Positions 1,195-58,018 of a stretch of 64,000 nucleotides of DNA are shown one piece after another. Within the stretch, counting starts at the first letter, position 1; each line of letters begins with the position of its first letter. This DNA comes from Candidatus Latescibacterota bacterium (lineage in GTDB: Bacteria > Latescibacterota > UBA2968), in NCBI GenBank assembly GCA_965222605.1, contig OZ244960.1:4384001-4448000 (forward strand), in the 5' to 3' direction. The translations under genes were made by a program, and so were the position numbers. The notes below the pieces were generated by a model that worked only from the letters and a program-made list of their open reading frames with translations, was not told where the DNA came from and did no database searches.

Positions 1195-2268
1195 TTAAAC
1201 CAGATACGCGCCATCTCGAATGATTTCGCGTGTTTTTCCGTCTGCGGAAATCAACAGGAGTGACGCCGCTTGAATCGGGCTGTCTTTGGCATAGACGATG
1301 TCCTGGTGAACAATATGTGCGGGGGATTTGAAATGTTCTGGCCCAATTGTGCCGCCGAGATGTTCGCTGCGTCCATAAGCCCAGTGAAAGCCCGCTTTTT
1401 CATCTTCTAACACATTGTCCCAAACAACAGCTTTTGGATTACAGCCCAGGGCAAATTCGGCGATGTTGGCGCGCATCGGGTCTTTGTTGAAATATGCTTT
1501 GAGTCTCGCGGCTTGTGTTGTTTCTCCCGCGACATCTACAATCCGATTGTTCTCGACCCGAAATACGACCACATCGCCATCATCACTGACGGGTATTTCG
1601 CCTTCTGTGCGACTCGGTTCGCCGTCTCTTTCACCTTCGTAGGGTACCTGAAAACTTTCTCCACTCGGCAAGTTGATAATGGGAAAGGCCGAGTTTGCCT
1701 TTTCTCGGGGCAGTTGCCCGTCGTCTTTGTGGGCTTCTCGGAAGCGCAGATCAACCGTCCATTTGTGGCCGGTTGAAAAAATAACCCGTGCGTATTCTGC
1801 TTCGGAGAGGGCGTCCATTAAAATCTGGCAGCGGCGCGCCACTTCGGTATAATCCGCAGAAAGCGCGGTTTCTTCCATGCGTCGGGCAACGCCTGGCAAT
1901 GACGCCGCGCGAAAATCATCGTGTGAACGCGCCCAGGCAGATAGGGGTGCCGTGGCGGAGAATTGCGTGAGTGCATTTACCATTGTCGCTTGCGATAGGC
2001 CGTCGCGCAAGGGGATGGGGTCGCCTTTGTCGAGGGGCAAATTGCCATTGTGTACACCGGTTGCGGGAAAGGCGATTAATGGCAGTACGTTAAAGCCGAC
2101 CCGTTCGCCGAGCGATACCCACGCTGCACGCCATTCGGCGGCCATTTCCCGGCGCTCTTGCCATGCCTGGTGATCGCGCAGTTCACCGTGTGGCACATCG
2201 GCAATGACGGCTACTGTTTCATCGGGTTCGGGATGAAATACATCTGTGAATAATTTGTGTAGATCCAT
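1195..2268 (-). CDS. M29-like aminopeptidase/metallopeptidase
   Basis: NLPSGE, NIAEFALGCNP, LEDEKAGFHWAYG, HQD motifs. Confidence 0.75.
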   Translation of the reverse strand: MDLHKLFTDVFHPEPDETVAVIADVPHGELRDHQAWQERREMAAEWRAAWVSLGERVGFNVLPLIAFPATGVHNGNLPLDKGDPIPLRDGLSQATMVNALTQFSATAPLSAWARSHDDFRAASLPGVARRMEETALSADYTEVARRCQILMDALSEAEYARVIFSTGHKWTVDLRFREAHKDDGQLPREKANSAFPIINLPSGESFQVPYEGERDGEPSRTEGEIPVSDDGDVVVFRVENNRIVDVAGETTQAARLKAYFNKDPMRANIAEFALGCNPKAVVWDNVLEDEKAGFHWAYGRSEHLGGTIGPEHFKSPAHIVHQDIVYAKDSPIQAASLLLISADGKTREIIRDGAYLV

Positions 2269-2269
2269 T

Positions 2270-3082
2270 TTACAAATTGTCCAATACTGCGCGCAATTGC
2301 CGTACGCCTTTTAGCATTAATTCCGGCGATCCCCAGTGTTCAATACTCACATTGCCGGTATAACCGTCTGATAGGACCATTTTGAGCAGGTCTTCGTATT
2401 GCATATTGCTTTCGCGAATGGGGTCCAGTTCTTTATCGGGATTGGGCTTGACGTGCAGATGGGTGATCCGTCCTTTAATCTGTTCATATCCGTCGGGTAC
2501 GGCTTGTTCGCCACATCCAACGCCGTTGTTCACATCCCAGCAAAAGCTAAATCCCGTTGTATCGCCCAGGGCGTCGGCGACCATTCTCGCTTCCGCGCAA
2601 CTGCCGGCAATGGTCGCGCCTTCATTTTCCAGTGATAGGGTGACGCCTTCGCGTTCGGCCGTTTTGGCAATGGGTTCGAGAAATGGCACGATGACATCGA
2701 GATAATTCTCAACGCCGGGTCGATTTTCCCGGTCTCCTTGTCTCCGATTGGGATTCCACAGGGAAAATCCGCGGATGACGGTTGTGTTAAACGCTTTTGC
2801 CAGTTCGATCATGCGGTCAAACATGCGCTGGTGTCCGGCTTTTTCTCGGTCGCTGTCGTGCGCGCATTTGCCCACGGGCGAGCCAACGGACATAACGGTC
2901 GCGTTATACTTTGCCAGTACGTCCTGGACGCGCTTCAATTCGTCGTTGTCGATTTCCTGTACGCGCTTGCCCCAGATGCCGCCGCGCAGTTCAATCCCCG
3001 TTGCACCCGCTTCTACGCCCAGGCGCACAGATTTATCAAAATCGGCTTTGTCGATTTCATCTGCAAAATAGCACAGTTCCAT
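2270..3082 (-). CDS. Sugar phosphate isomerase/epimerase (xylose-isomerase-like TIM barrel)
   Basis: FADEI start; LENE, WDVNN, HLHVK, SIEH metal ligands. Confidence 0.8.
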   Translation of the reverse strand: MELCYFADEIDKADFDKSVRLGVEAGATGIELRGGIWGKRVQEIDNDELKRVQDVLAKYNATVMSVGSPVGKCAHDSDREKAGHQRMFDRMIELAKAFNTTVIRGFSLWNPNRRQGDRENRPGVENYLDVIVPFLEPIAKTAEREGVTLSLENEGATIAGSCAEARMVADALGDTTGFSFCWDVNNGVGCGEQAVPDGYEQIKGRITHLHVKPNPDKELDPIRESNMQYEDLLKMVLSDGYTGNVSIEHWGSPELMLKGVRQLRAVLDNL

Positions 3083-3131
3083 CCCTTCCCCCTAATAAGT
3101 GGTCAACGTGACTTGGTGCCATATCATATAA

Positions 3132-3260
3132 GGGAATTATATACTTTAATAACCGTCAGGCTACGAGTATATTTCTTGCTTCTTTGTGCATTGCCACAAT
3201 ACTTGCTGGTCTTACATGCACTCCACAAGCGTAAATTTCGGGCATTCCAACCGTATTATT
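3132..3260 (-). ncRNA. Predicted TnpB omegaRNA scaffold (3' part; 5' boundary uncertain)
   Basis: Overlaps the tnpB 3' end. Typical TTTACGCTTGTGGAG..GTAAGACC..GAAGCAAGAA layout with a GTGCAT/ATGCAC stem, followed by an ATATACT..AGTATAT hairpin. Confidence 0.6.
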
Positions 3261-4346
3261 GCGAACATTTATCGCCGCGTTTATGTCTCTGTCATGCTCT
3301 GTAAAGCATTCTGGACACGTCCATACCCTGACGTGTAATGGCATATCGTCAACTTTATGACCACATAAAGAGCACGTCTTTGACGACGGATAAAAGGTAT
3401 CCAATTTCACTATGTCACGCCCATACCAATCGGCTTTGTAGCACAAAAAGGACACAAACTGTCCCCATGAGACATCGGCGATTGCTCTGGATAGACGCCT
3501 GTTCTTCAGCATATTTTGTATTTTGAGACTCTCTACGCCTATTGCTTGGTTCTCGTCAATAAGCATTTTTGAGAGTTTATGCTGAAAATTACGCCTCACA
3601 TTGGCAATCTTTGATTGTATCTTTGCCACTTTAAGTCTTGCTTTGTCTCTGTTCTTTGACCCTTTTTTACGTCTCGATAACACTCTTTGAGTACGTATCA
3701 GCTTCTTATATAAGGAATCAAATACTCTCGGATTTGCTATTTTGTCGCCATCAGACGTAATAGCAAAGTGGTTGATACCGAGATCAATGCCTATCTTTGC
3801 TTTGAGTGGTTTGAGTTGTGCTATTGTCTCAATGACTGATATAGAGACAAAATACCGACCACATGTGTCTTTGGACACAGTGGCACTGCGTATCTCACAT
3901 TCTTTTGGCAGTGGCCTGTGATAATTCACTTTTATGTCGCCGTCTATTTTTTGTAGCTTAATACCTCGCTCTATGAGACAAAAATCATTGTGCCTGTAAT
4001 ACGCACTCTGGCGAGCATACTTGCTCTTAAACTTAGGCTTTCCTGCTTGACCCTTGAAAAATCTATTGAAAGCTGTGTTGAGATTCCTTAATGCTTGCGT
4101 CAATGGTATCCGCAACACGTCATTGAGCCACAACTTGTCTGTTTCTTGCTTCAAAAGCGTCAGGTCTCTCGATAATTGTGTAATTGAAAGAGACTCGTTG
4201 CTTTCACGATATGCCGATTGTTTTTTGTCCAGTGCCCAGTTATAGACATATCGGACACAACCGAATGTCTGTGAAAGTGACAAACACTGTGCTTTGTTAG
4301 GATAGAGGCGATACTTATATGCCTTATATATAGCCACCTTTTTCAT
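3156..4346 (-). CDS. tnpB: RNA-guided endonuclease TnpB
   Basis: N-terminal KAYKYRLYP; RuvC-I GIDLG, RuvC-II VESL, Zn finger CSLC/CPEC, RuvC-III DRDINAA. Catalytic D-E-D intact. Confidence 0.95.
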   Translation of the reverse strand: MKKVAIYKAYKYRLYPNKAQCLSLSQTFGCVRYVYNWALDKKQSAYRESNESLSITQLSRDLTLLKQETDKLWLNDVLRIPLTQALRNLNTAFNRFFKGQAGKPKFKSKYARQSAYYRHNDFCLIERGIKLQKIDGDIKVNYHRPLPKECEIRSATVSKDTCGRYFVSISVIETIAQLKPLKAKIGIDLGINHFAITSDGDKIANPRVFDSLYKKLIRTQRVLSRRKKGSKNRDKARLKVAKIQSKIANVRRNFQHKLSKMLIDENQAIGVESLKIQNMLKNRRLSRAIADVSWGQFVSFLCYKADWYGRDIVKLDTFYPSSKTCSLCGHKVDDMPLHVRVWTCPECFTEHDRDINAAINVRNNTVGMPEIYACGVHVRPASIVAMHKEARNILVA

Positions 4347-4352
4347 AGTATA

Positions 4353-4381
4353 AATATACATAAAAACAATACGTTGTGCAA
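4353..4381 (-). promoter_or_regulatory. sigma70 promoter for tnpB (probably leaderless mRNA)
   Basis: TTGCAC-17bp-TATATT ending 6 nt before the ATG. Confidence 0.55.
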
Positions 4382-4451
4382 CAAAAATACACATCAATGG
4401 TTACTAAAATATATAATTCCCTTATTTTTGATTTTTCATTATCATGAGCGT

Positions 4452-4772
4452 ATGAATGAACAGACACGCAAAAAAATTCTGCAATCCACACCGCACCAGA
4501 AGGGGATTCGCAAGGTCGATAGAAAACGCCTGCTCGCGCAATTGGCCCGCGCTGAGCCGCCGCCCGATTACGATCGCTATATGCGATCCAAATCGTGGCA
4601 AATTAAAAGGCAGAAGTTTCTCGCCCATTACAATTGCCAATGCGTTCTGTGCGGTAGCAAAGAGCATTTACACGTCCACCACCTGCACTATCAGACCCTG
4701 GGCAAAGAGCGCGTGGAAGATGTGATTGTTTGCTGCAGGCGGTGTCATTTTATTGAACACTTTAAGAAGTGA
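4452..4772 (+). CDS. Small HNH endonuclease
   Basis: YMRSKSWQIKR, CVLCG..LHVHHLHY..LG.E..D...CCRRCH. Confidence 0.85.
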   Translation: MNEQTRKKILQSTPHQKGIRKVDRKRLLAQLARAEPPPDYDRYMRSKSWQIKRQKFLAHYNCQCVLCGSKEHLHVHHLHYQTLGKERVEDVIVCCRRCHFIEHFKK

Positions 4773-4783
4773 TCCAGTGTTTT

Positions 4784-4809
4784 GTAGGGGCGGGTCCCCG
4801 TGCCCGCCC
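4784..4809 (+). repeat. GTAG-type REP element
   Basis: GTAG followed by the palindrome GGGCGGGTC-CCC-GTGCCCGCCC. Confidence 0.65.
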
Positions 4810-4837
4810 GCAAGTGGAATTATTTCCGGAGATTTTC

Positions 4838-6118
4838 ATGCCGAATATTATCATTATTACCACGCACGATACAGGGCGGCATTTTCGGTGTTATGGTATT
4901 GATACGGTACACACGCCTGCGATTGATGCAATTGCCGAAGAGGGATTCAAATTTACCAATTATTTTACGACGAGTCCGGTGTGTAGTCCCAGCCGGGGGG
5001 CTATGCTTACGGGACGCTATCCGCAGAGCAATGGTTTGATTGGGCTGACGCATTCGCCCTGGGATTGGTGTTTTAATGAAGGGGAGCGACACCTTTCGCA
5101 TATTTTGCGCGATGCGGGCTATCACACGGCTCTTTTTGGTTTGCAACACGAAGCCTCTAATATTGATGATCTGGGTTTTGAAGCGACTTTTGCACAGCGC
5201 GATGAAACCGGCCGCCGCGCAAACGCGCTTGTGGTTGCCCAGGCTCTGGCCGATTTTCTCAAAGCAGGTGGTGTGTCCAAAACGCCATTCTACGCGCAAG
5301 TTGGTTTTTTTGAGACCCACCGCCCGCACGATTTTGGCGATGTTGAACCCGATGATAGCAAAGGTATTGATGTGCCGCCTTATCTAATTGATGACGAGAC
5401 GTCGCGACGAGAACTCGCCCTGCAACAAGGCGCGATCCGTCGCGTTGATGAGGCTGTTCAGATTATTACCGATGCATTGAGGGAAAGTGGTCTGGAAGAT
5501 GATACCCTGCTGGTCTTTACGGTTGATCACGGTATTGAATTTCCCAGGGCTAAGTGGTTTTGCTATGATGCAGGCATTGGCGTTGCATTGCTTATGCGCT
5601 GGCCCGGCGGAGGTGTTCGAGGTGGACAGACCTGTGACCATCTGCTCAGCAATGTCGATTTTTTGCCTACGCTTATGAATCTCATACAGCATCCCATTCC
5701 CGATAATGTGGAGGGCTTGAGTTTTGCCAGTGTGTTCAAAAATCCCGATGCGGAACCTGCGCGAGATGCTGCCTTTTCCATTTTTCAGGGTAGTGATAGT
5801 CGGAGCATTCGCACCGGTCGCTACAAGTTTATTCGCAATTTTAGTCCGCGGCGCCTGATAGATGTGCCCGTGGATATGACCGATCCTCCAACGCCGCGCA
5901 TCAAACAACCCGTGGCGCAACTCTACGATCTGGAAAAAGACCCGAATGAATTTGAGAATGTCGCCCAAAAATCCGAATACCGAGATGTTTATAACGCATT
6001 GAGCCAGCGCCTGTGGCAATGGATGGAAGATGTAAATGATCCCTCGCTCAAAAGTCCGATTCCCACGCCGTATTATTGGGAGGCGATGGCAGAATATCAC
6101 CAGAGAAAGGAAGGGTAA
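4838..6118 (+). CDS. Sulfatase (formylglycine-dependent)
   Basis: PNIIIITTHD, CSPSR..LTGRYP, DHG. Confidence 0.92.
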   Translation: MPNIIIITTHDTGRHFRCYGIDTVHTPAIDAIAEEGFKFTNYFTTSPVCSPSRGAMLTGRYPQSNGLIGLTHSPWDWCFNEGERHLSHILRDAGYHTALFGLQHEASNIDDLGFEATFAQRDETGRRANALVVAQALADFLKAGGVSKTPFYAQVGFFETHRPHDFGDVEPDDSKGIDVPPYLIDDETSRRELALQQGAIRRVDEAVQIITDALRESGLEDDTLLVFTVDHGIEFPRAKWFCYDAGIGVALLMRWPGGGVRGGQTCDHLLSNVDFLPTLMNLIQHPIPDNVEGLSFASVFKNPDAEPARDAAFSIFQGSDSRSIRTGRYKFIRNFSPRRLIDVPVDMTDPPTPRIKQPVAQLYDLEKDPNEFENVAQKSEYRDVYNALSQRLWQWMEDVNDPSLKSPIPTPYYWEAMAEYHQRKEG

Positions 6119-54683: not shown

Positions 54684-56336
54684 ATGTGGATGTACTCCCA
54701 TTGTAATGGAATGGACATATATAGCCGCTACTTAAACGTGAGTCTCTACAGGGATAAGCCTCACTCCACCGGGAGTTTTGCGAAGGTCTGTAATGGGCGT
54801 TTCGGCCACTATCTTAAAGACAGATTGGAAATCCAGCGGATACCTTATGACCTTTCAATCACAGATATGATTGTCAAGCGTGCGCTAATTCCTGATCTAT
54901 TTGTAGAGTTGCCTTCCGAATATTTTGTAAGTTGGGATAACTATCCGCTTACAGGAGGCTCCGAAACGCCAGAAAACTTGATACCGGCTGATAACAATAG
55001 CATTTCTATTCTTACTTGGGGTGGCTGGTCACTTGAATCTCTCTTGCACCCTTATGATGAAGAACTGAAGAGCGATTTTGTCGATCGGTTCTCAGGAGAA
55101 GTCCCTCGAACTCTGAAGATACAGGAGCACCCTAATGGAGATTATTTTCGACCGTATGAAGCATATTTTTCCTATTGGAAAGGCTACATTTTTGTCGAAG
55201 CTCTCGACGGCTATGAACATATTGATAAATTCCTATCGCGGGAGATAGGTCAAGCAACTTTGATATCGCGATTTGCCGACGTGAGCCAGCAATGGGAAGA
55301 GAAGTACAAGGGTGTTTTCACACGACTCTCCTTTTACAGAACAGCAAAAACAATTTTGACCCTATGGGAAGCCCCTCGCCCTCCAACGACTTATAAGGAA
55401 CTTTCAGAGTTCATCCAAAAGGTAACGAATTGTAATTCTGAATTGCTGGAACAGGATATGGAAAAGCTCTTGATTTTGTTTGGAGACTGGAAAAAACGAC
55501 AGAAAGAGGGAGGACGGTATTATCCACAGGCGATAGAGCTTCTCAGGCAGGATATATATTTTCTCCTTGAGTGGCTCTGTACCCTGAATAGAAAGCCTCA
55601 AAAAGTCTATTTTGAGAAATGGAGCTATAATATAGAACCACATGATATTTGGGTACAACTCAAAGAAGTAATTTCTTATGAAGAATTTGAATTAGAAAGG
55701 AGATTTATTAGATATGTACCAAGCTATGCTGAGATTTTAAAAAAAGAGGGATATATAACGGATGTCAAAAGCGTTTATGCAAGGCTCGCTGAACACGAAA
55801 GTTTTTGGCCTTGGATTCGTGCTTTCTCCGATTTGCATGACCAACTGAGACACACCAGTTCTAAAAGACCACTGGTTTTCAAACAATCCCGAATTCTTGA
55901 TCATCTTCTTGTATTGGCAATTCGAACGGAGATATTGATTCGGGAGTTCTTTAGAAAAGCCACTCAGTTTGAAGAAAATCGGGACCTGCGTCTCGTATTC
56001 AATGAGTTCTCGCAAAAGTTACCTAAGGGGTCGCAGGAGCACAGTATTTTGTATGCAGTTTCGGATAAAACGAAATGGAAAAAAACCGAACTAAGCGGAA
56101 AACCTAACAAAATTTTTGGGAACATAGACCAGATTCCTCGACCAAAGAAATGGAGTAAATTTCAGCATCATATCTTTTTATCCATACTGCGTTTTGTAAC
56201 TGCACGGAATTATTTTGCTCACCACTCGTTCAAAGATGGAACGTTAAATAGCCAAGTAGAAGAACTGACGGGACAAATTTTGGTTTCTTGTTTGGAAAGT
56301 GTGATTTATATGGATTATGTTGTTCAGAAAATCTAG
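54684..56336 (+). CDS. Hypothetical protein with C-terminal HEPN-like RxxxxH motif
   Basis: 550 aa, AGGAG RBS, helical C-terminus containing RNYFAH. Confidence 0.6.
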   Translation: MWMYSHCNGMDIYSRYLNVSLYRDKPHSTGSFAKVCNGRFGHYLKDRLEIQRIPYDLSITDMIVKRALIPDLFVELPSEYFVSWDNYPLTGGSETPENLIPADNNSISILTWGGWSLESLLHPYDEELKSDFVDRFSGEVPRTLKIQEHPNGDYFRPYEAYFSYWKGYIFVEALDGYEHIDKFLSREIGQATLISRFADVSQQWEEKYKGVFTRLSFYRTAKTILTLWEAPRPPTTYKELSEFIQKVTNCNSELLEQDMEKLLILFGDWKKRQKEGGRYYPQAIELLRQDIYFLLEWLCTLNRKPQKVYFEKWSYNIEPHDIWVQLKEVISYEEFELERRFIRYVPSYAEILKKEGYITDVKSVYARLAEHESFWPWIRAFSDLHDQLRHTSSKRPLVFKQSRILDHLLVLAIRTEILIREFFRKATQFEENRDLRLVFNEFSQKLPKGSQEHSILYAVSDKTKWKKTELSGKPNKIFGNIDQIPRPKKWSKFQHHIFLSILRFVTARNYFAHHSFKDGTLNSQVEELTGQILVSCLESVIYMDYVVQKI

Positions 56337-56459
56337 GCGGTAAAAGTATAAAGTAATTGTACTCGGTGCATCTGTATCTTTTTTTTGGTTGCGGTTCTGT
56401 CCCGATCTACCCATCTTTTACCGACACGACAATTCAAACGAGGCTTGAAAGAGGATAAG

Positions 56460-56633
56460 GTGATACTTATATCGTGGTGGGTTTTTGTAATCATTGTGAT
56501 TGTGGGGGTCTGCATTTTGGTTTGGAAAGGTATTATTGATCTCATCATTATCCTGGTCGCTGGTGAAAAATGGGAACGAATTATTTTTGCTGTGTTGGCC
56601 CTTGTGTTTATTTTGTTTATTCGGTCAAGGTAA
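56460..56633 (+). CDS. Small two-TM membrane protein
   Basis: GAGGA RBS + GTG start; two hydrophobic stretches. Confidence 0.5.
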   Translation: MILISWWVFVIIVIVGVCILVWKGIIDLIIILVAGEKWERIIFAVLALVFILFIRSR

Positions 56634-56714
56634 TCTTCGAAAAAGAAAGGCCGTGCAGGGTCGAAACCACACGGCCAAAGTGTCTTGATTTCCACACGGA
56701 AAGGAAAAAAGACG

Positions 56715-57011
56715 ATGCCATACACACAGAAAAGTGACGCTTCTGGCAACCAAATAATTTGCACCTATTTCTCTGGCTAGGATGATTGGCTTGCCCACAA
56801 AGAGAGGTATCATTGGGTTGTGCGGGATATTCTCACTGGCGAGAAGATTATTGAATCACCGCAGGACTATCGTTCACAAGAAGAATGCGATCTGTCTATC
56901 GCTATATTTCAACACGAGGGTTCTCTGCCACCAGGCAAGCACGTTTGGGAGGGGATCAGGAACAGAAAACCGAAACCTTTTCCGCCGATAGGTCTCCATG
57001 GAAGGAGTTAA
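56715..57011 (+). pseudogene. YegP-like small ORF interrupted by an in-frame TAG
   Basis: AAGGA RBS, ATG at 56715, TAG at 56778-56780; the frame continues YHWVVRD..ESPQDYRSQEEC. Confidence 0.5.
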
Positions 57012-57013
57012 AA

Positions 57014-57238
57014 ATGCCAGTACCAGACACATTAGAACCAATTTCTCATTTTGTTTTTTTTGAAGAAAGCTCAGGTGTTTGGAAAGTGGAATTTAGAGAT
57101 ATACAAGGAATTCCGATTTTTCAGTTTCCGAAAGAGTATGTTTCATCTGCCGGGTGTAAACGAGCTATACGAATTCTCAAAGAAGCCCTTGTATTTGAAG
57201 AAAAGAGAGAGTTGGTTGATGGTTCACATGACCAGTAA
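57014..57238 (+). CDS. YegP/DUF1508-like small protein
   Basis: AAGGAG RBS; F..GVW..F...G.PI....EY.S..GCKRAI pattern. Confidence 0.55.
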   Translation: MPVPDTLEPISHFVFFEESSGVWKVEFRDIQGIPIFQFPKEYVSSAGCKRAIRILKEALVFEEKRELVDGSHDQ

Positions 57239-57263
57239 CACATTACAGAGAAGGTGGTAAAAA

Positions 57264-57482
57264 ATGATACTGCGACAACCTGATATCCGGGATCATTTAA
57301 ATCGTTTTATGGAACTTGGGCGGGAGTATCATTTGCAAGAAATATACGATTATTTTTTAGCGATAAACCACACGGCCTTAAAACACAATATAAGGGCGAC
57401 TTTGCAAACTGCGAAACGCAAGGGGCAAGTCAAGAATATAGCCCGTTCGGGTTGGCATACCAGAATTGATTATATACAATGA
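57264..57482 (+). CDS. Small winged-HTH-like protein
   Basis: LQEIYDYF..KHNIRATLQ..RSGW. Confidence 0.5.
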   Translation: MILRQPDIRDHLNRFMELGREYHLQEIYDYFLAINHTALKHNIRATLQTAKRKGQVKNIARSGWHTRIDYIQ

Positions 57483-57495
57483 GAGGGGAAAAACA

Positions 57496-57675
57496 ATGAA
57501 TCGAGAACAAGTTGAAAACGTTATAGAAACTCTTGAAACATTTAGTGCTCCACACGTTCACGTAGGCTCTCATTCTTTCAAACAAAGAATATTGGATTCA
57601 GATTTTACGGAAGATCAAATTATTTTAATCATATCAATTGCCGCGTGTATTGCAGACAGAAAAACTCGTTTGTGA
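57496..57675 (+). CDS. Small hypothetical protein
   Basis: GAGGGG RBS; tightly packed operon. Confidence 0.45.
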   Translation: MNREQVENVIETLETFSAPHVHVGSHSFKQRILDSDFTEDQIILIISIAACIADRKTRL

Positions 57676-57689
57676 AAGGGGGTGAAAAA

Positions 57690-57896
57690 ATGTGGGTTCA
57701 GTTTTTAAATTCAACAACAGAGATGTCTCAGCACACTTTATACAATCTTACAGGAGTAACCATCAGATTAGACCATGATTCTATACTACTACTCAACAGC
57801 GACAACTCCCACGAAGTCATTAAGTTTAAGGATACGGACACGGCCTATGACACATTCTTAGAATTGCAAAAAAAAATAAATCTGATTATCATATAA
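57690..57896 (+). CDS. Small hypothetical protein
   Basis: GGGGGTG RBS; followed by a terminator. Confidence 0.5.
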   Translation: MWVQFLNSTTEMSQHTLYNLTGVTIRLDHDSILLLNSDNSHEVIKFKDTDTAYDTFLELQKKINLIII

Positions 57897-57920
57897 GATT
57901 GTCTCCATATCCAACTTTAA

Positions 57921-57952
57921 GGGCGTCAGAAGTCATTTCTGGCGTCTTTTTT
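57921..57952 (+). terminator. Intrinsic terminator of the small-ORF operon
   Basis: GGGCGTCAGAA-GTCAT-TTCTGGCGTCT + T run. Confidence 0.7.
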
Positions 57953-58000
57953 ACATTTATAAGTCTCTCTCTTTCAGTGATTTACGCGAGTTGGGTGTAC

Positions 58001-58018
58001 AAAGTATATAATTCCCTT
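58001..58018 (+). repeat. Solo copy of the tnpB-element TIR
   Basis: AAAGTATATAATTCCCTT is identical over 18 bp to the reverse complement of 3130-3147. Confidence 0.7.

What the first reader, a model, noticed from the sequence alone, without database searches (positions are those of the whole stretch)
3128..4425. TnpB enclosed by DDE-type terminal inverted repeats instead of IS605 hairpin ends
Seen: an intact tnpB (RuvC D-E-D) is the only gene between 27-bp inverted repeats (25/27 match, core GGGAATTATATA). There is no tnpA and no GC-rich IS605 right-end hairpin with a TCAA/TCAC terminus. Known: IS200/605 and IS607 lack TIRs, while ISNwi1-group IS1595 elements start with ggnnatTAT and that family forms passenger-carrying derivatives. 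Inference: TnpB has been adopted by an IS1595-like cut-and-paste transposon family, here as a non-autonomous copy. Caveat: no 8-bp target duplication is visible (TCATATAA vs TTATTTTT); only a palindromic TA flanks AGGG..CCCT.
Basis: partly seen in the sequence, partly recalled or inferred. Interest (0 to 1): 0.85.

Follow-up and report, generated by a model that had tools for sequence, protein, structure and literature searches.

The report
TnpB cargo in IS1595-type transposon
A small mobile element in a sponge-associated Latescibacterota genome carries the RNA-guided nuclease gene tnpB between the inverted-repeat ends of an IS1595-type cut-and-paste transposon instead of the usual IS605 hairpin ends, a bacterial parallel to how eukaryotic transposons captured the TnpB relatives called Fanzors.

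Summary
The element proper is window 3132-4421 (1,290 bp). It has 23-bp terminal inverted repeats (21/23). Its only gene is an intact IS200/605-type tnpB (3156-4346, minus strand).

The terminal sequence GGGAATTATATAC also ends a multicopy 1.24-kb insertion sequence in a congeneric genome. That IS encodes an IS1595-family DDE transposase, and many elements with these ends (that IS, small transposase-less copies, cargo-carrying relatives) have 8-bp target duplications.

Seven TnpBs with these ends form one clade, found in 8 of 20 genomes of the genus. They sit at different sites and are under purifying selection. One has a perfect 8-bp duplication, and a relative has the matching empty site.

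Sister TnpBs in other phyla are mostly solo; the four Myxococcales copies whose ends I defined keep classical IS605 hairpin/TCAA ends. The conserved guide-RNA (omega-RNA) scaffold runs into the right repeat, which forms the 3' strand of a terminal hairpin.

This copy has no target duplication and lacks 42 bp present in relatives. No transposase with an identical repeat is in its genome.

DDE-associated, repeat-bounded TnpBs are already published. IS1595 was not among the families named in the texts I could read. I rate it a new variant of a known kind.

The parts
3132..4421 (-). Whole non-autonomous element (1,290 bp): IS1595-type repeats plus tnpB and its guide-RNA region
   Evidence: Flank similarity to relatives ends at 3131 and resumes by 4424. 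The G002 element-free locus fixes the limits at GGG...CCC. G+C is 0.40 inside and 0.52 outside.
3132..3154 (.). Terminal inverted repeat on the tnpB 3' side (GGGAATTATATACTTTAATAACC)
   Evidence: It matches the G010 183-bp MITE ends at 21/23 and the G016 IS1595 element end at 19/23.
4399..4421 (.). Terminal inverted repeat on the tnpB 5' side (reverse complement GGGAATTATATATTTTAGTAACC)
   Evidence: It matches the other arm at 21/23.
3156..4346 (-). tnpB coding sequence, 396 aa plus stop, RuvC D-E-D and CxxC...CxxC intact
   Evidence: NCBIfam IS200_TnpB scores 417.8 bits (cut-off 425), guided_TnpB 346 (cut-off 100), IS607_TnpB only 179.
3132..3233 (-). Core of the predicted omega-RNA scaffold; the scaffold probably extends upstream into the ORF to about 3330
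   Evidence: The DNA is conserved across 8 elements, including G002 and G005 where the ORF has already ended. RNAalifold predicts 26 pairs, 9 with compensatory changes. The motif GTGGC..GAAGCAGGAAA is shared with IS605-type Myxococcales relatives. Expression is not shown.
3139..3172 (-). Terminal hairpin whose 3' strand lies inside the repeat
   Evidence: z = -2.5 and -2.6 here. It is present at the tnpB-3' end of all 4 TnpB elements tested (z -2.6 to -4.65). It is absent at their 5' ends and at both ends of the autonomous IS.
3112..3131 (-). Flank that would encode the guide of the omega-RNA (inferred; length assumed)
   Evidence: Inference from the TnpB model in which the guide lies just outside the right end (PMC10691335 passages). 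Not tested.
4353..4380 (-). Promoter-like site TGCACA-16-TATATT, 7 nt upstream of the tnpB ATG
   Evidence: Consensus match only: 5 sites were found against 3.7 +/- 2.1 in shuffles, so this is not significant.
3128..3131 (.). It is flank, not element. The same holds for TTAT at 4422-4425.
   Evidence: Both are present in the element-free locus of G002.

Best explanation
Window 3132-4421 is a non-autonomous member of an IS1595-family group of cut-and-paste transposons. It is a mobile insertion cassette: two repeats and no transposase. Its sole cargo is an IS200/605-type TnpB nuclease with its omega-RNA.

Shown:
- The repeats are those of IS1595-transposase elements in the same genus.
- Such elements, including a TnpB-carrying sibling, insert with 8-bp target duplications.
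- The repeat-bounded TnpBs are one clade nested among solo TnpBs; the one outgroup whose ends I defined (Myxococcales) has IS605 hairpin ends.
- These TnpBs are under purifying selection.

Inferred:
- An IS1341-type tnpB/omega-RNA module landed inside an IS1595-type miniature element. It lost its own hairpin ends and is now moved in trans by an IS1595 DDE transposase.
- The omega-RNA still ends at the element boundary, so its guide is read from the flank.
- Its last stem was rebuilt using the repeat as the 3' strand. The same bases would then serve as transposase binding site and RNA scaffold.
- TnpB would cut element-free copies of the insertion site and favour retention or copying of the cassette by repair. 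This is untested.

The window's copy is probably immobile now. It lost its duplication, most simply through a ~50-bp deletion next to one end.
For: Shared ends:
- GGGAWTTATATAC occurs 33+36 times in G016, with 0 hits for the reversed control. It occurs in 21 of 31 family genomes.
- Plus/minus pairs about 1.24 kb apart enclose a 312-aa IS1595 transposase.
- Perfect 8-bp duplications flank 11 of 17 fetched elements; 2 more match at 7/8.

In the window's own genome:
- A 4,016-bp element has perfect 23-bp repeats, the duplication ATGCGCGA and an intact IS1595 transposase.

TnpB siblings:
- Seven loci at 50.5-57.4% aa identity in tblastn. The same repeat core is found in 5 and in all 7 on at least one side.
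- Similarity stops exactly at the repeat ends.
- G006 has TTAACAAA|element|TTAACAAA, while G003 has the same locus with one TTTACAAA and no element.

Distribution and descent:
- The clade is in 8 of 20 genus genomes and 0 of 131 other Latescibacterota at E<=1e-90.
- The 7 repeat-bounded TnpBs form one clade with SH-aLRT 99 (34 rows).
- dN/dS is 0.11-0.15 in 6 of 6 pairs among four copies at four sites.

End replacement:
- Four Myxococcales copies of a 47% relative have an IS605 left-end hairpin, a right-end hairpin and a GGTCAA end. They share the scaffold motif up to GAAGCAGGAAA and diverge after it.

RNA:
- Compensatory pairs in the scaffold.
- A hairpin specific to the tnpB-3' end that uses the repeat.

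Nesting as a precursor state:
- In G010 an IS607-type element sits inside an IS1595-type MITE that has the duplication TTATTTTT.
Against: - This copy has no target duplication. Compared with G002 it lacks 42 bp at the site. Its arrival by transposition is therefore inferred from siblings, not seen.
- No transposase-bearing element with an identical repeat is in G000. The intact one has GGAGACTATGTAGAATAGTGCCG, which I count as 12/23 to the window's repeat (strings printed).
- The clade is single-copy in 7 of its 8 genomes, so mobility is low.
- Only 5 of those 8 genomes show an IS1595 transposase at E<=1e-10.
- The omega-RNA is a prediction. Rfam gives no match.
- The one RNA-library contig lies inside the ORF (3526-3705), not over the scaffold. 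Flanking genes are covered alike, so DNA carry-over is not excluded.
- The 7 left-end flanks share no motif that could be a TAM. With a variable 8-bp duplication, it is unclear how TnpB would find empty sites.
- Two siblings (G014, G020) also lack a clear duplication.
Confidence: 0.85

Rival explanations
1. Plain nesting. An ordinary IS1341/IS605-type tnpB element with its own ends sits inside an unrelated IS1595-type MITE and is still moved by a Y1 TnpA. The repeats would have nothing to do with tnpB.
For: Nesting does occur. In G010 an IS607-type element has five or more other copies with its own limits, and one copy lies inside an IS1595-type MITE. G000 has an intact Y1 TnpA and about 20 classical TnpB elements.
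Against: - There is no room for separate ends. The tnpB stop codon (3156-3158) is 1 nt from the inner edge of the repeat, and only 52 nt separate the ATG from the other repeat.
- No GC hairpin or TCAC/TCAA end is present, and the conserved scaffold runs straight into the repeat.
- Copies at four sites share sequence exactly up to the repeat ends.
- One copy has an 8-bp duplication with a matching empty site. IS200/605 elements do not make duplications (PMC13565253 passage).
Confidence: 0.04
2. Inert or re-purposed passenger. The element is an IS1595-type cassette, but TnpB has no RNA-guided role in its spread. It is a hitch-hiker, or serves the host in some other way.
For: - Single copy per genome.
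- No shared TAM-like motif beside the left ends.
- Cut-and-paste excision already leaves a break, which is a reason given for the rarity of OMEGA systems in DDE transposons (PMC13565253 passage).
- IS1595-type ends in this genus carry many unrelated cargoes.
Against: - The catalytic D-E-D and zinc finger are intact.
- dN/dS is 0.11-0.15 across copies that moved to different sites.
- A structured, covarying 3' region is kept even where it is no longer coding.
- A hairpin is rebuilt from different parts of the repeat in different subfamilies, and only at the tnpB-3' end.
- The association has outlasted about 50% protein divergence.
Confidence: 0.1
3. An IS630/Tc1-mariner-type element with a TA duplication (TA|AGGG...CCCT|TA), or an IS607-type element crossing over at a dinucleotide.
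For: TA flanks AGGG...CCCT in the window. IS630-linked TnpBs with symmetrical ends are published (PMC10691335 passage).
Against: - The flanking bases belong to the element-free locus of G002.
- Elements with this repeat encode IS1595, not IS630, transposases and make 8-bp duplications.
- No serine recombinase lies in or beside the element.
Confidence: 0.01

Closest known systems
DDE-transposase-associated TnpB branches (DDE-1 to DDE-6) of Altae-Tran et al. 2023, PMC10691335 (passages read)
   Same: TnpB lies inside inverted terminal repeats that are shared with DDE-transposase elements. The TnpB 3' end is close to the transposon end. Solo TnpBs sit in the same ends and are presumably moved in trans.
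   Different: The families named in the texts I could read are IS630 (PMC10691335) and ISL2, IS630 and IS1031 (review PMC13565253). 'IS1595' has 0 occurrences in the main text of PMC10691335. In the sequences I searched, only transposase-less copies carry tnpB. The protein is a typical, non-rearranged IS200/605-type TnpB.
IS1595 family of insertion sequences, including passenger-carrying derivatives and transposase-less cassettes (MICs, MITEs)
   Same: The repeats are shared with elements encoding Zn-ribbon + DDE_Tnp_IS1595 transposases. Sibling and related elements have 8-bp duplications and AT-rich targets. The same ends carry varied cargo.
   Different: This element has no transposase and no duplication. 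Its cargo is a TnpB/omega-RNA module whose RNA appears to use the repeat. The ISNwi1 subgroup assignment rests on recall only.
IS1341-group (solo tnpB) elements of the IS200/IS605 family
   Same: The protein and the scaffold motif are homologous. The best NCBIfam model is IS200_TnpB. The nearest relatives outside the genus are solo TnpBs, and the four Myxococcales copies whose ends I defined have hairpin ends.
   Different: No subterminal hairpins and no TCAA/TCAC end. Repeats are present instead. A sibling makes an 8-bp duplication. These are defining features and they are not met.
Fanzor1 and Fanzor2* in eukaryotic cut-and-paste transposons (Yoon et al. 2023, PMC10711439, passages read)
   Same: A TnpB-type nuclease was captured by a TIR/TSD transposon, often as a non-autonomous copy. 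[quoted passage not shown]
   Different: This element is bacterial. The protein is an unrearranged TnpB, and the duplication is 8 bp and variable rather than short and fixed. No RNA or cleavage data exist here.

Membership tests
IS1595 family (as a non-autonomous derivative) | Terminal inverted repeats shared with elements that encode an IS1595-type transposase | tested here: met
   The G016 IS has ends GGGAATTATATACTT.., 19/23 to the window's repeat. Its protein matches PF12762 at 2.8e-40, PF12760 at 3.1e-10 and NF033547 at 185 bits.
IS1595 family (as a non-autonomous derivative) | 8-bp target-site duplication | tested here: not met
   The window has TCATATAA against TTATTTTT. The feature is met in a TnpB-carrying sibling with a matching empty site and in 11 of 17 other elements with these ends.
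IS1595 family (as a non-autonomous derivative) | Element encodes a DDE transposase with an N-terminal zinc ribbon | tested here: not met
   tnpB is the only gene. The element can therefore only be a transposase-less cassette of the family.
ISNwi1 subgroup of IS1595 | End consensus 'ggnnatTAT' and subgroup-specific transposase | not testable with these tools
No paper text in the library gives it (listing only). ISfinder is not on hand.
IS200/IS605 family, IS1341 group | TnpB protein of the IS200/605 type | tested here: met
   IS200_TnpB scores 417.8 bits, just under its 425 cut-off. guided_TnpB scores 346 bits (cut-off 100). Three Pfam domains match.
IS200/IS605 family, IS1341 group | Subterminal hairpins at both ends, no inverted terminal repeats, no duplication, conserved cleavage tetranucleotide | tested here: not met
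   Repeats are present. There is no GC hairpin or TCAC/TCAA end, unlike the classical copies of the same genome and the Myxococcales relatives. A sibling makes a duplication.
IS607 family | Serine recombinase TnpA; IS607-type TnpB | tested here: not met
   No recombinase gene is present. IS607_TnpB scores 179 bits against a cut-off of 350.
IS630/Tc1-mariner | TA duplication and an IS630-type DDE transposase on elements with the same ends | tested here: not met
   Duplications are 8 bp. Transposases on these ends are IS1595-type.
DDE-associated TnpB (sensu PMC10691335) | TnpB within inverted terminal repeats shared with DDE-transposase elements, with its 3' end within 250 bp of the end | tested here: met
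   The stop codon is 24 nt from the element end. Shared ends are shown.

The most novel reading that the evidence does not exclude
A bacterial TnpB/omega-RNA module has been functionally re-fitted onto an IS1595 (Merlin-like) cut-and-paste transposon end. The transposase-binding repeat doubles as the guide-adjacent stem of the omega-RNA, and the guide starts with the variable 8-bp duplication. RNA-guided cutting of empty sites then gives a transposase-less cassette its own means of persistence. This would be an independent prokaryotic replay of the Fanzor capture. It would also be a natural system for asking how guide-RNA boundaries and TAM use are redefined when the transposase changes.
Probability: 0.4. 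Interest if true: 0.75.

Novelty: new variant of a known kind. Interest (0 to 1): 0.6.

Why it matters
TnpB is the ancestor of Cas12 and a compact genome-editing nuclease. Its biology has been worked out for IS605 and IS607 elements, whose scarless excision explains why a homing nuclease helps them.

Cases where TnpB rides a DDE cut-and-paste transposon are known mainly from a survey and from eukaryotic Fanzors. This locus and its siblings offer a small, tractable bacterial example with several useful properties:
- The partner transposase family is identified.
- Both states are available: hairpin-ended relatives and repeat-ended copies.
- A nested-insertion precursor state exists in a sister genome.
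- There is a clear prediction that one 23-bp sequence serves both the transposase and the guide RNA.

It makes testable how an omega-RNA adapts to a new transposon end, and whether TnpB still helps an element that makes variable duplications.

Tried and rejected
- IS630/TA idea. I first suspected a TA duplication. I dropped it once the flanking bases were seen in the element-free locus and 8-bp duplications and IS1595 transposases appeared.
- IS607-type ends. The eLife 2018 abstract (listing) and the review passages say IS607 has no inverted repeats. No recombinase is present.
- Promoter or tRNA idea. I considered that the solitary GGGAATTATATA hits in G000 were a promoter motif or tRNA-like. 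ARAGORN found no tRNA at L008. The hits turned out to be ends of other IS1595-type elements.
- Rfam. No match at E<=1 in 2900-4700.
- Promoter scan. Not above shuffles.
- Metagenome scan and genome scan. Outside the Latescibacterota genus these gave only relatives at <=51% identity. In 154 such loci I found no repeat core (except L059, a second G005 copy), no IS1595 transposase and no Y1 TnpA. A serine recombinase was found only far from tnpB, in L077 and L197.
- Flank screen. Of 49 loci listed, 3 had flanks too short. One non-Latescibacterota locus (L088, Alicyclobacillus) gave a perfect 20/20 inverted match 288 nt beyond the gene. It looks like an IS605-type left end of a neighbouring inverted copy. 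I did not follow it up.
- Sequencing runs, element depth. The element is at lower contig depth than its flanks in X3, X7 and X10. At 90% likeness the flanks also collect related species, so I do not claim within-strain polymorphism.
- Sequencing runs, other contigs. An X3 contig joining 3093 to 4431 with 101 other letters is an element-free allele of unknown strain. A 3,375-nt X3 contig that seems to hold the two repeats back to back at another site rests on a 22-letter side and is only a hint.
- Sequencing runs, RNA. The RNA-library contig 3526-3705 does not show expression.
- Co-occurrence of the TnpB cassette with IS1595 transposases: 5 of 8 genomes with the cassette against 4 of 13 without. 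The numbers are too small and the genomes too related to mean anything.
- Literature. For IS1595 with TnpB, one search listed 9 papers, none about an association judged by title and abstract start. For ISNwi1/ISPna2, one search listed 7 papers, none giving end consensuses.
Full report
**What is at the coordinates.** Window 3128-3154 and 4399-4425 form a 27-nt inverted repeat with 25 of 27 bases complementary. The next best inverted repeat in 2800-4800 is 20 nt at 80%. In 100 shuffles the best 27-nt window never exceeded 22 matches.

Between the arms lies one real gene, tnpB, on the minus strand. It has the three Pfam domains of TnpB. The catalytic D-E-D and four zinc-finger cysteines are invariant in an alignment with three homologues. 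Its start, shared with homologues, is the ATG at 4346-4344, giving 396 aa.

NCBIfam places it with IS200/605-type TnpB (417.8 bits against a 425 cut-off; guided_TnpB 346 bits against 100). It does not fit IS607-type TnpB (179 bits against 350). The stretch has 40% G+C against 52% in the flanks and is single-copy in its 6.34-Mb genome.

**Contrast inside the same genome.** The genome holds 33 TnpB-like matches. I cut out 22 of them, and 20 have close DNA relatives among the others. All 9 copies whose ends I printed have the classical IS200/605 anatomy: a GC hairpin near each end and a right end of the ...GTCAC type. An intact Y1 TnpA is present. The element under study has none of this.

**Exact limits.** Forty related genomes were searched with 1800-6100. 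None has the element at this locus.
- Left-flank similarity runs to window 3131 in eight genomes.
- Right-flank similarity resumes at 4424 in fifteen.
- The G002 locus reads ...CCATATCATATAA[42 bp]TTATTTTTGATTTTTC....

The element is 3132-4421, and the true repeat is 23 bp (21/23). The window lacks the 42 bp and has no target duplication. By coordinates, G020, G005 and G003 have the same 58-nt spacing as G002. I read only G002's sequence.

**The repeat belongs to the tnpB lineage.** Seven congeneric loci encode TnpBs at 50.5-57.4% identity in tblastn.
- Inverted repeats with the same core flank five of them.
- With one or two mismatches allowed, a sixth (G008) has both ends, and G002 has only the tnpB-3' end.
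- Alignments of both ends show that similarity between copies begins at GGG and stops at CCC, with unrelated flanks.
- G014, G019 and G020 match the G006 element over exactly its repeat-to-repeat span.

At E<=1e-90 the clade is in 8 of 20 genomes of the genus and in 0 of 131 other Latescibacterota searched. There is one copy per genome, except two in G005.

In a 34-row tree the seven repeat-bounded TnpBs are one clade (SH-aLRT 99). That clade lies among solo TnpBs of Chloroflexota, Alicyclobacillaceae, Actinomycetota and Myxococcota. Rows with internal stops were left out: L058, L059, L077, L106, L109, L125 and L128.

**Whose repeat it is.** The 13-nt core occurs 33 times forward and 36 times reverse in genome G016, against 0 for the reversed control. 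It occurs in 21 of 31 genomes of the family.
- Pairs about 1.24 kb apart enclose a 312-aa ORF. It has DDE_Tnp_IS1595 and the IS1595 zinc ribbon, and NCBIfam calls it an IS1595 family transposase.
- Two larger elements with the same core carry 313- and 316-aa IS1595 transposases plus cargo.
- Of 17 fetched elements with these ends, 11 have perfect 8-bp duplications, 2 match at 7/8 and 4 show none. The set includes three 183-bp MITEs of G010.
- The window's repeat is 21/23 identical to those MITE ends and 19/23 to the G016 IS end.

The window's own genome has two IS1595 transposase matches.
- One is intact, in a 4,016-bp element with perfect 23-bp repeats and the duplication ATGCGCGA. Its repeat is a diverged version of the window's (12/23 by my count).
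- The other is a broken remnant beside a repeat much closer to the window's.

IS1595 transposases are found in 9 of 21 genomes of the genus.

**Proof that a tnpB cassette moves this way.** In G006 the element is flanked by TTAACAAA on both sides. G003 has the same locus without the element and with a single TTTACAAA. That is a target-site duplication. IS200/605 and IS607 elements do not make duplications (review passages; eLife abstract).

**Is TnpB a live part of the element?** Four copies at four sites differ by dS 0.18-0.45, with dN/dS 0.11-0.15 in all six pairs. In five of the six pairs, dS is lower in the last 39 codons.

The DNA after the core of the gene is conserved in all eight elements, including G002 and G005 where the ORF has already ended. 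RNAalifold finds 26 pairs, 9 with compensatory changes.

Four copies of a 47% relative in a Myxococcales genome have textbook IS605 ends. They share the motif GTGGC..GAAGCAGGAAA with the window's element, after which the sequences part. The relative continues into its GC hairpin and GGTCAA end. The window's element continues into a hairpin whose 3' strand is the IS1595 repeat.

Such a hairpin is predicted at the tnpB-3' end of every TnpB element folded (z -2.1 to -3.9; -2.6 to -4.65). It is built from different parts of the repeat in different subfamilies. It is not predicted at their 5' ends (z -1.15 to +0.30) or at either end of the autonomous IS (z -0.03 to +1.04).

I infer that the omega-RNA was re-fitted to the new end. 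No RNA data support this yet: Rfam has no match and the one RNA-library contig is uninformative.

**How it probably arose and works.** A sister genome shows the likely first step. There an IS607-type tnpA-tnpB element, with five or more other copies of its own, is nested in an IS1595-type MITE that has a duplication.

For the lineage studied here, the nested element's own ends are gone and the module is fused to the repeats. Movement would need an IS1595 transposase in trans. TnpB would take its guide from the flank, beginning with the duplicated 8 bp.

What TAM it uses is open: the seven left flanks share no motif.

The window's copy has no duplication. The simplest account is a ~50-bp deletion next to one end (42 bp plus one copy of the 8 bp). 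A different ancestral spacer is an alternative that I cannot exclude.

**Comparison with what is known.** Altae-Tran et al. 2023 (PMC10691335; passages read) describe six TnpB branches linked to DDE transposases. All have inverted terminal repeats, and solo TnpBs sit in the same ends. IS630 is the family named.

A 2026 review (PMC13565253; passages) lists ISL2, IS630 and IS1031. 'IS1595' does not occur in the main text of the former.

Yoon et al. 2023 (PMC10711439; passages) predict that TIRs and TSDs form part of the guide-RNA scaffold of Fanzors in eukaryotic cut-and-paste transposons. That is the closest functional parallel.

A full-text search for IS1595 with TnpB listed 9 papers, none about such an association judged by title and abstract start.

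**Verdict.** The kind of element (TnpB inside DDE-type repeats) is known. The IS1595 partner, the transposase-less cassette form and the repeat-based terminal hairpin make this a new variant. Confidence in the identity of the element is 0.85. Confidence that TnpB is RNA-guided and useful to it is about 0.5-0.6.

Noticed in passing
window 57994-58016 (minus strand): A solitary IS1595-type end, GGGAATTATATACTTTGTACACC. Its first 17 nt are identical to the repeat at 3132. It bounds an AT-rich stretch of small ORFs (about 56300-58017). No partner end was found within the window.
   Followed up: partly
G000:C1:4383180-4383767, about 230 bp before the window starts: A 588-bp pair of IS1595-type repeats (MITE-like) with T-rich flanks. 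Another solitary end lies at G000:4381056.
   Followed up: partly
G000:C1:2935064-2939079: An apparently recent 4,016-bp IS1595-family element in the window's genome. It has perfect 23-bp repeats, the 8-bp duplication ATGCGCGA and an intact 319-320-aa transposase, plus about 3 kb of cargo that I did not annotate.
   Followed up: partly
window 4771-4811: A GC-rich REP-like repeat (TGTAGGGGCGGG...). Short, near-identical matches are scattered through many genomes of the genus. Contig depth spikes there in three runs.
   Followed up: no
L143 (G010:C1:2874200-2877700) and G010:C1:3119258-3121241: An IS607-type element (serine recombinase plus a distant TnpB) is nested in an IS1595-type MITE with the duplication TTATTTTT. 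A second locus holds the same MITE parts around a shortened copy, as if the composite had moved as a unit.
   Followed up: partly
G016, 35 PF12762 matches: 20 of the 35 transposase matches in G016 carry one in-frame TGA within the DDE domain, while others, such as L133, are open. This could be a shared inactivating mutation of a subfamily or a recoding signal.
   Followed up: no
L146 (G016:C1:1387600-1398200) and G016:C1:4421564-4431380: Two copies of a 9.8-kb IS1595-type element with the duplication TAAAAAAG. It carries a 316-aa transposase and large ORFs (628 and 974 aa) of unchecked function.
   Followed up: no
L047 (G019:C1:117049-121600), right flank of the tnpB element: The G019 copy is inserted against a fragment of another IS1595-type end (flank ATATAATTCCCT), i.e. 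an insertion into a repeat.
   Followed up: no
L088 (Alicyclobacillus shizuokensis), 107 nt before and 288 nt after tnpB: A perfect inverted match of at least 20 nt (26 nt identical in the strings printed) (GCCGTAAGACCCCGAGCTTTAGCTCT) flanks a distant tnpB relative. It looks like IS605-type left ends of two inverted neighbours.
   Followed up: no
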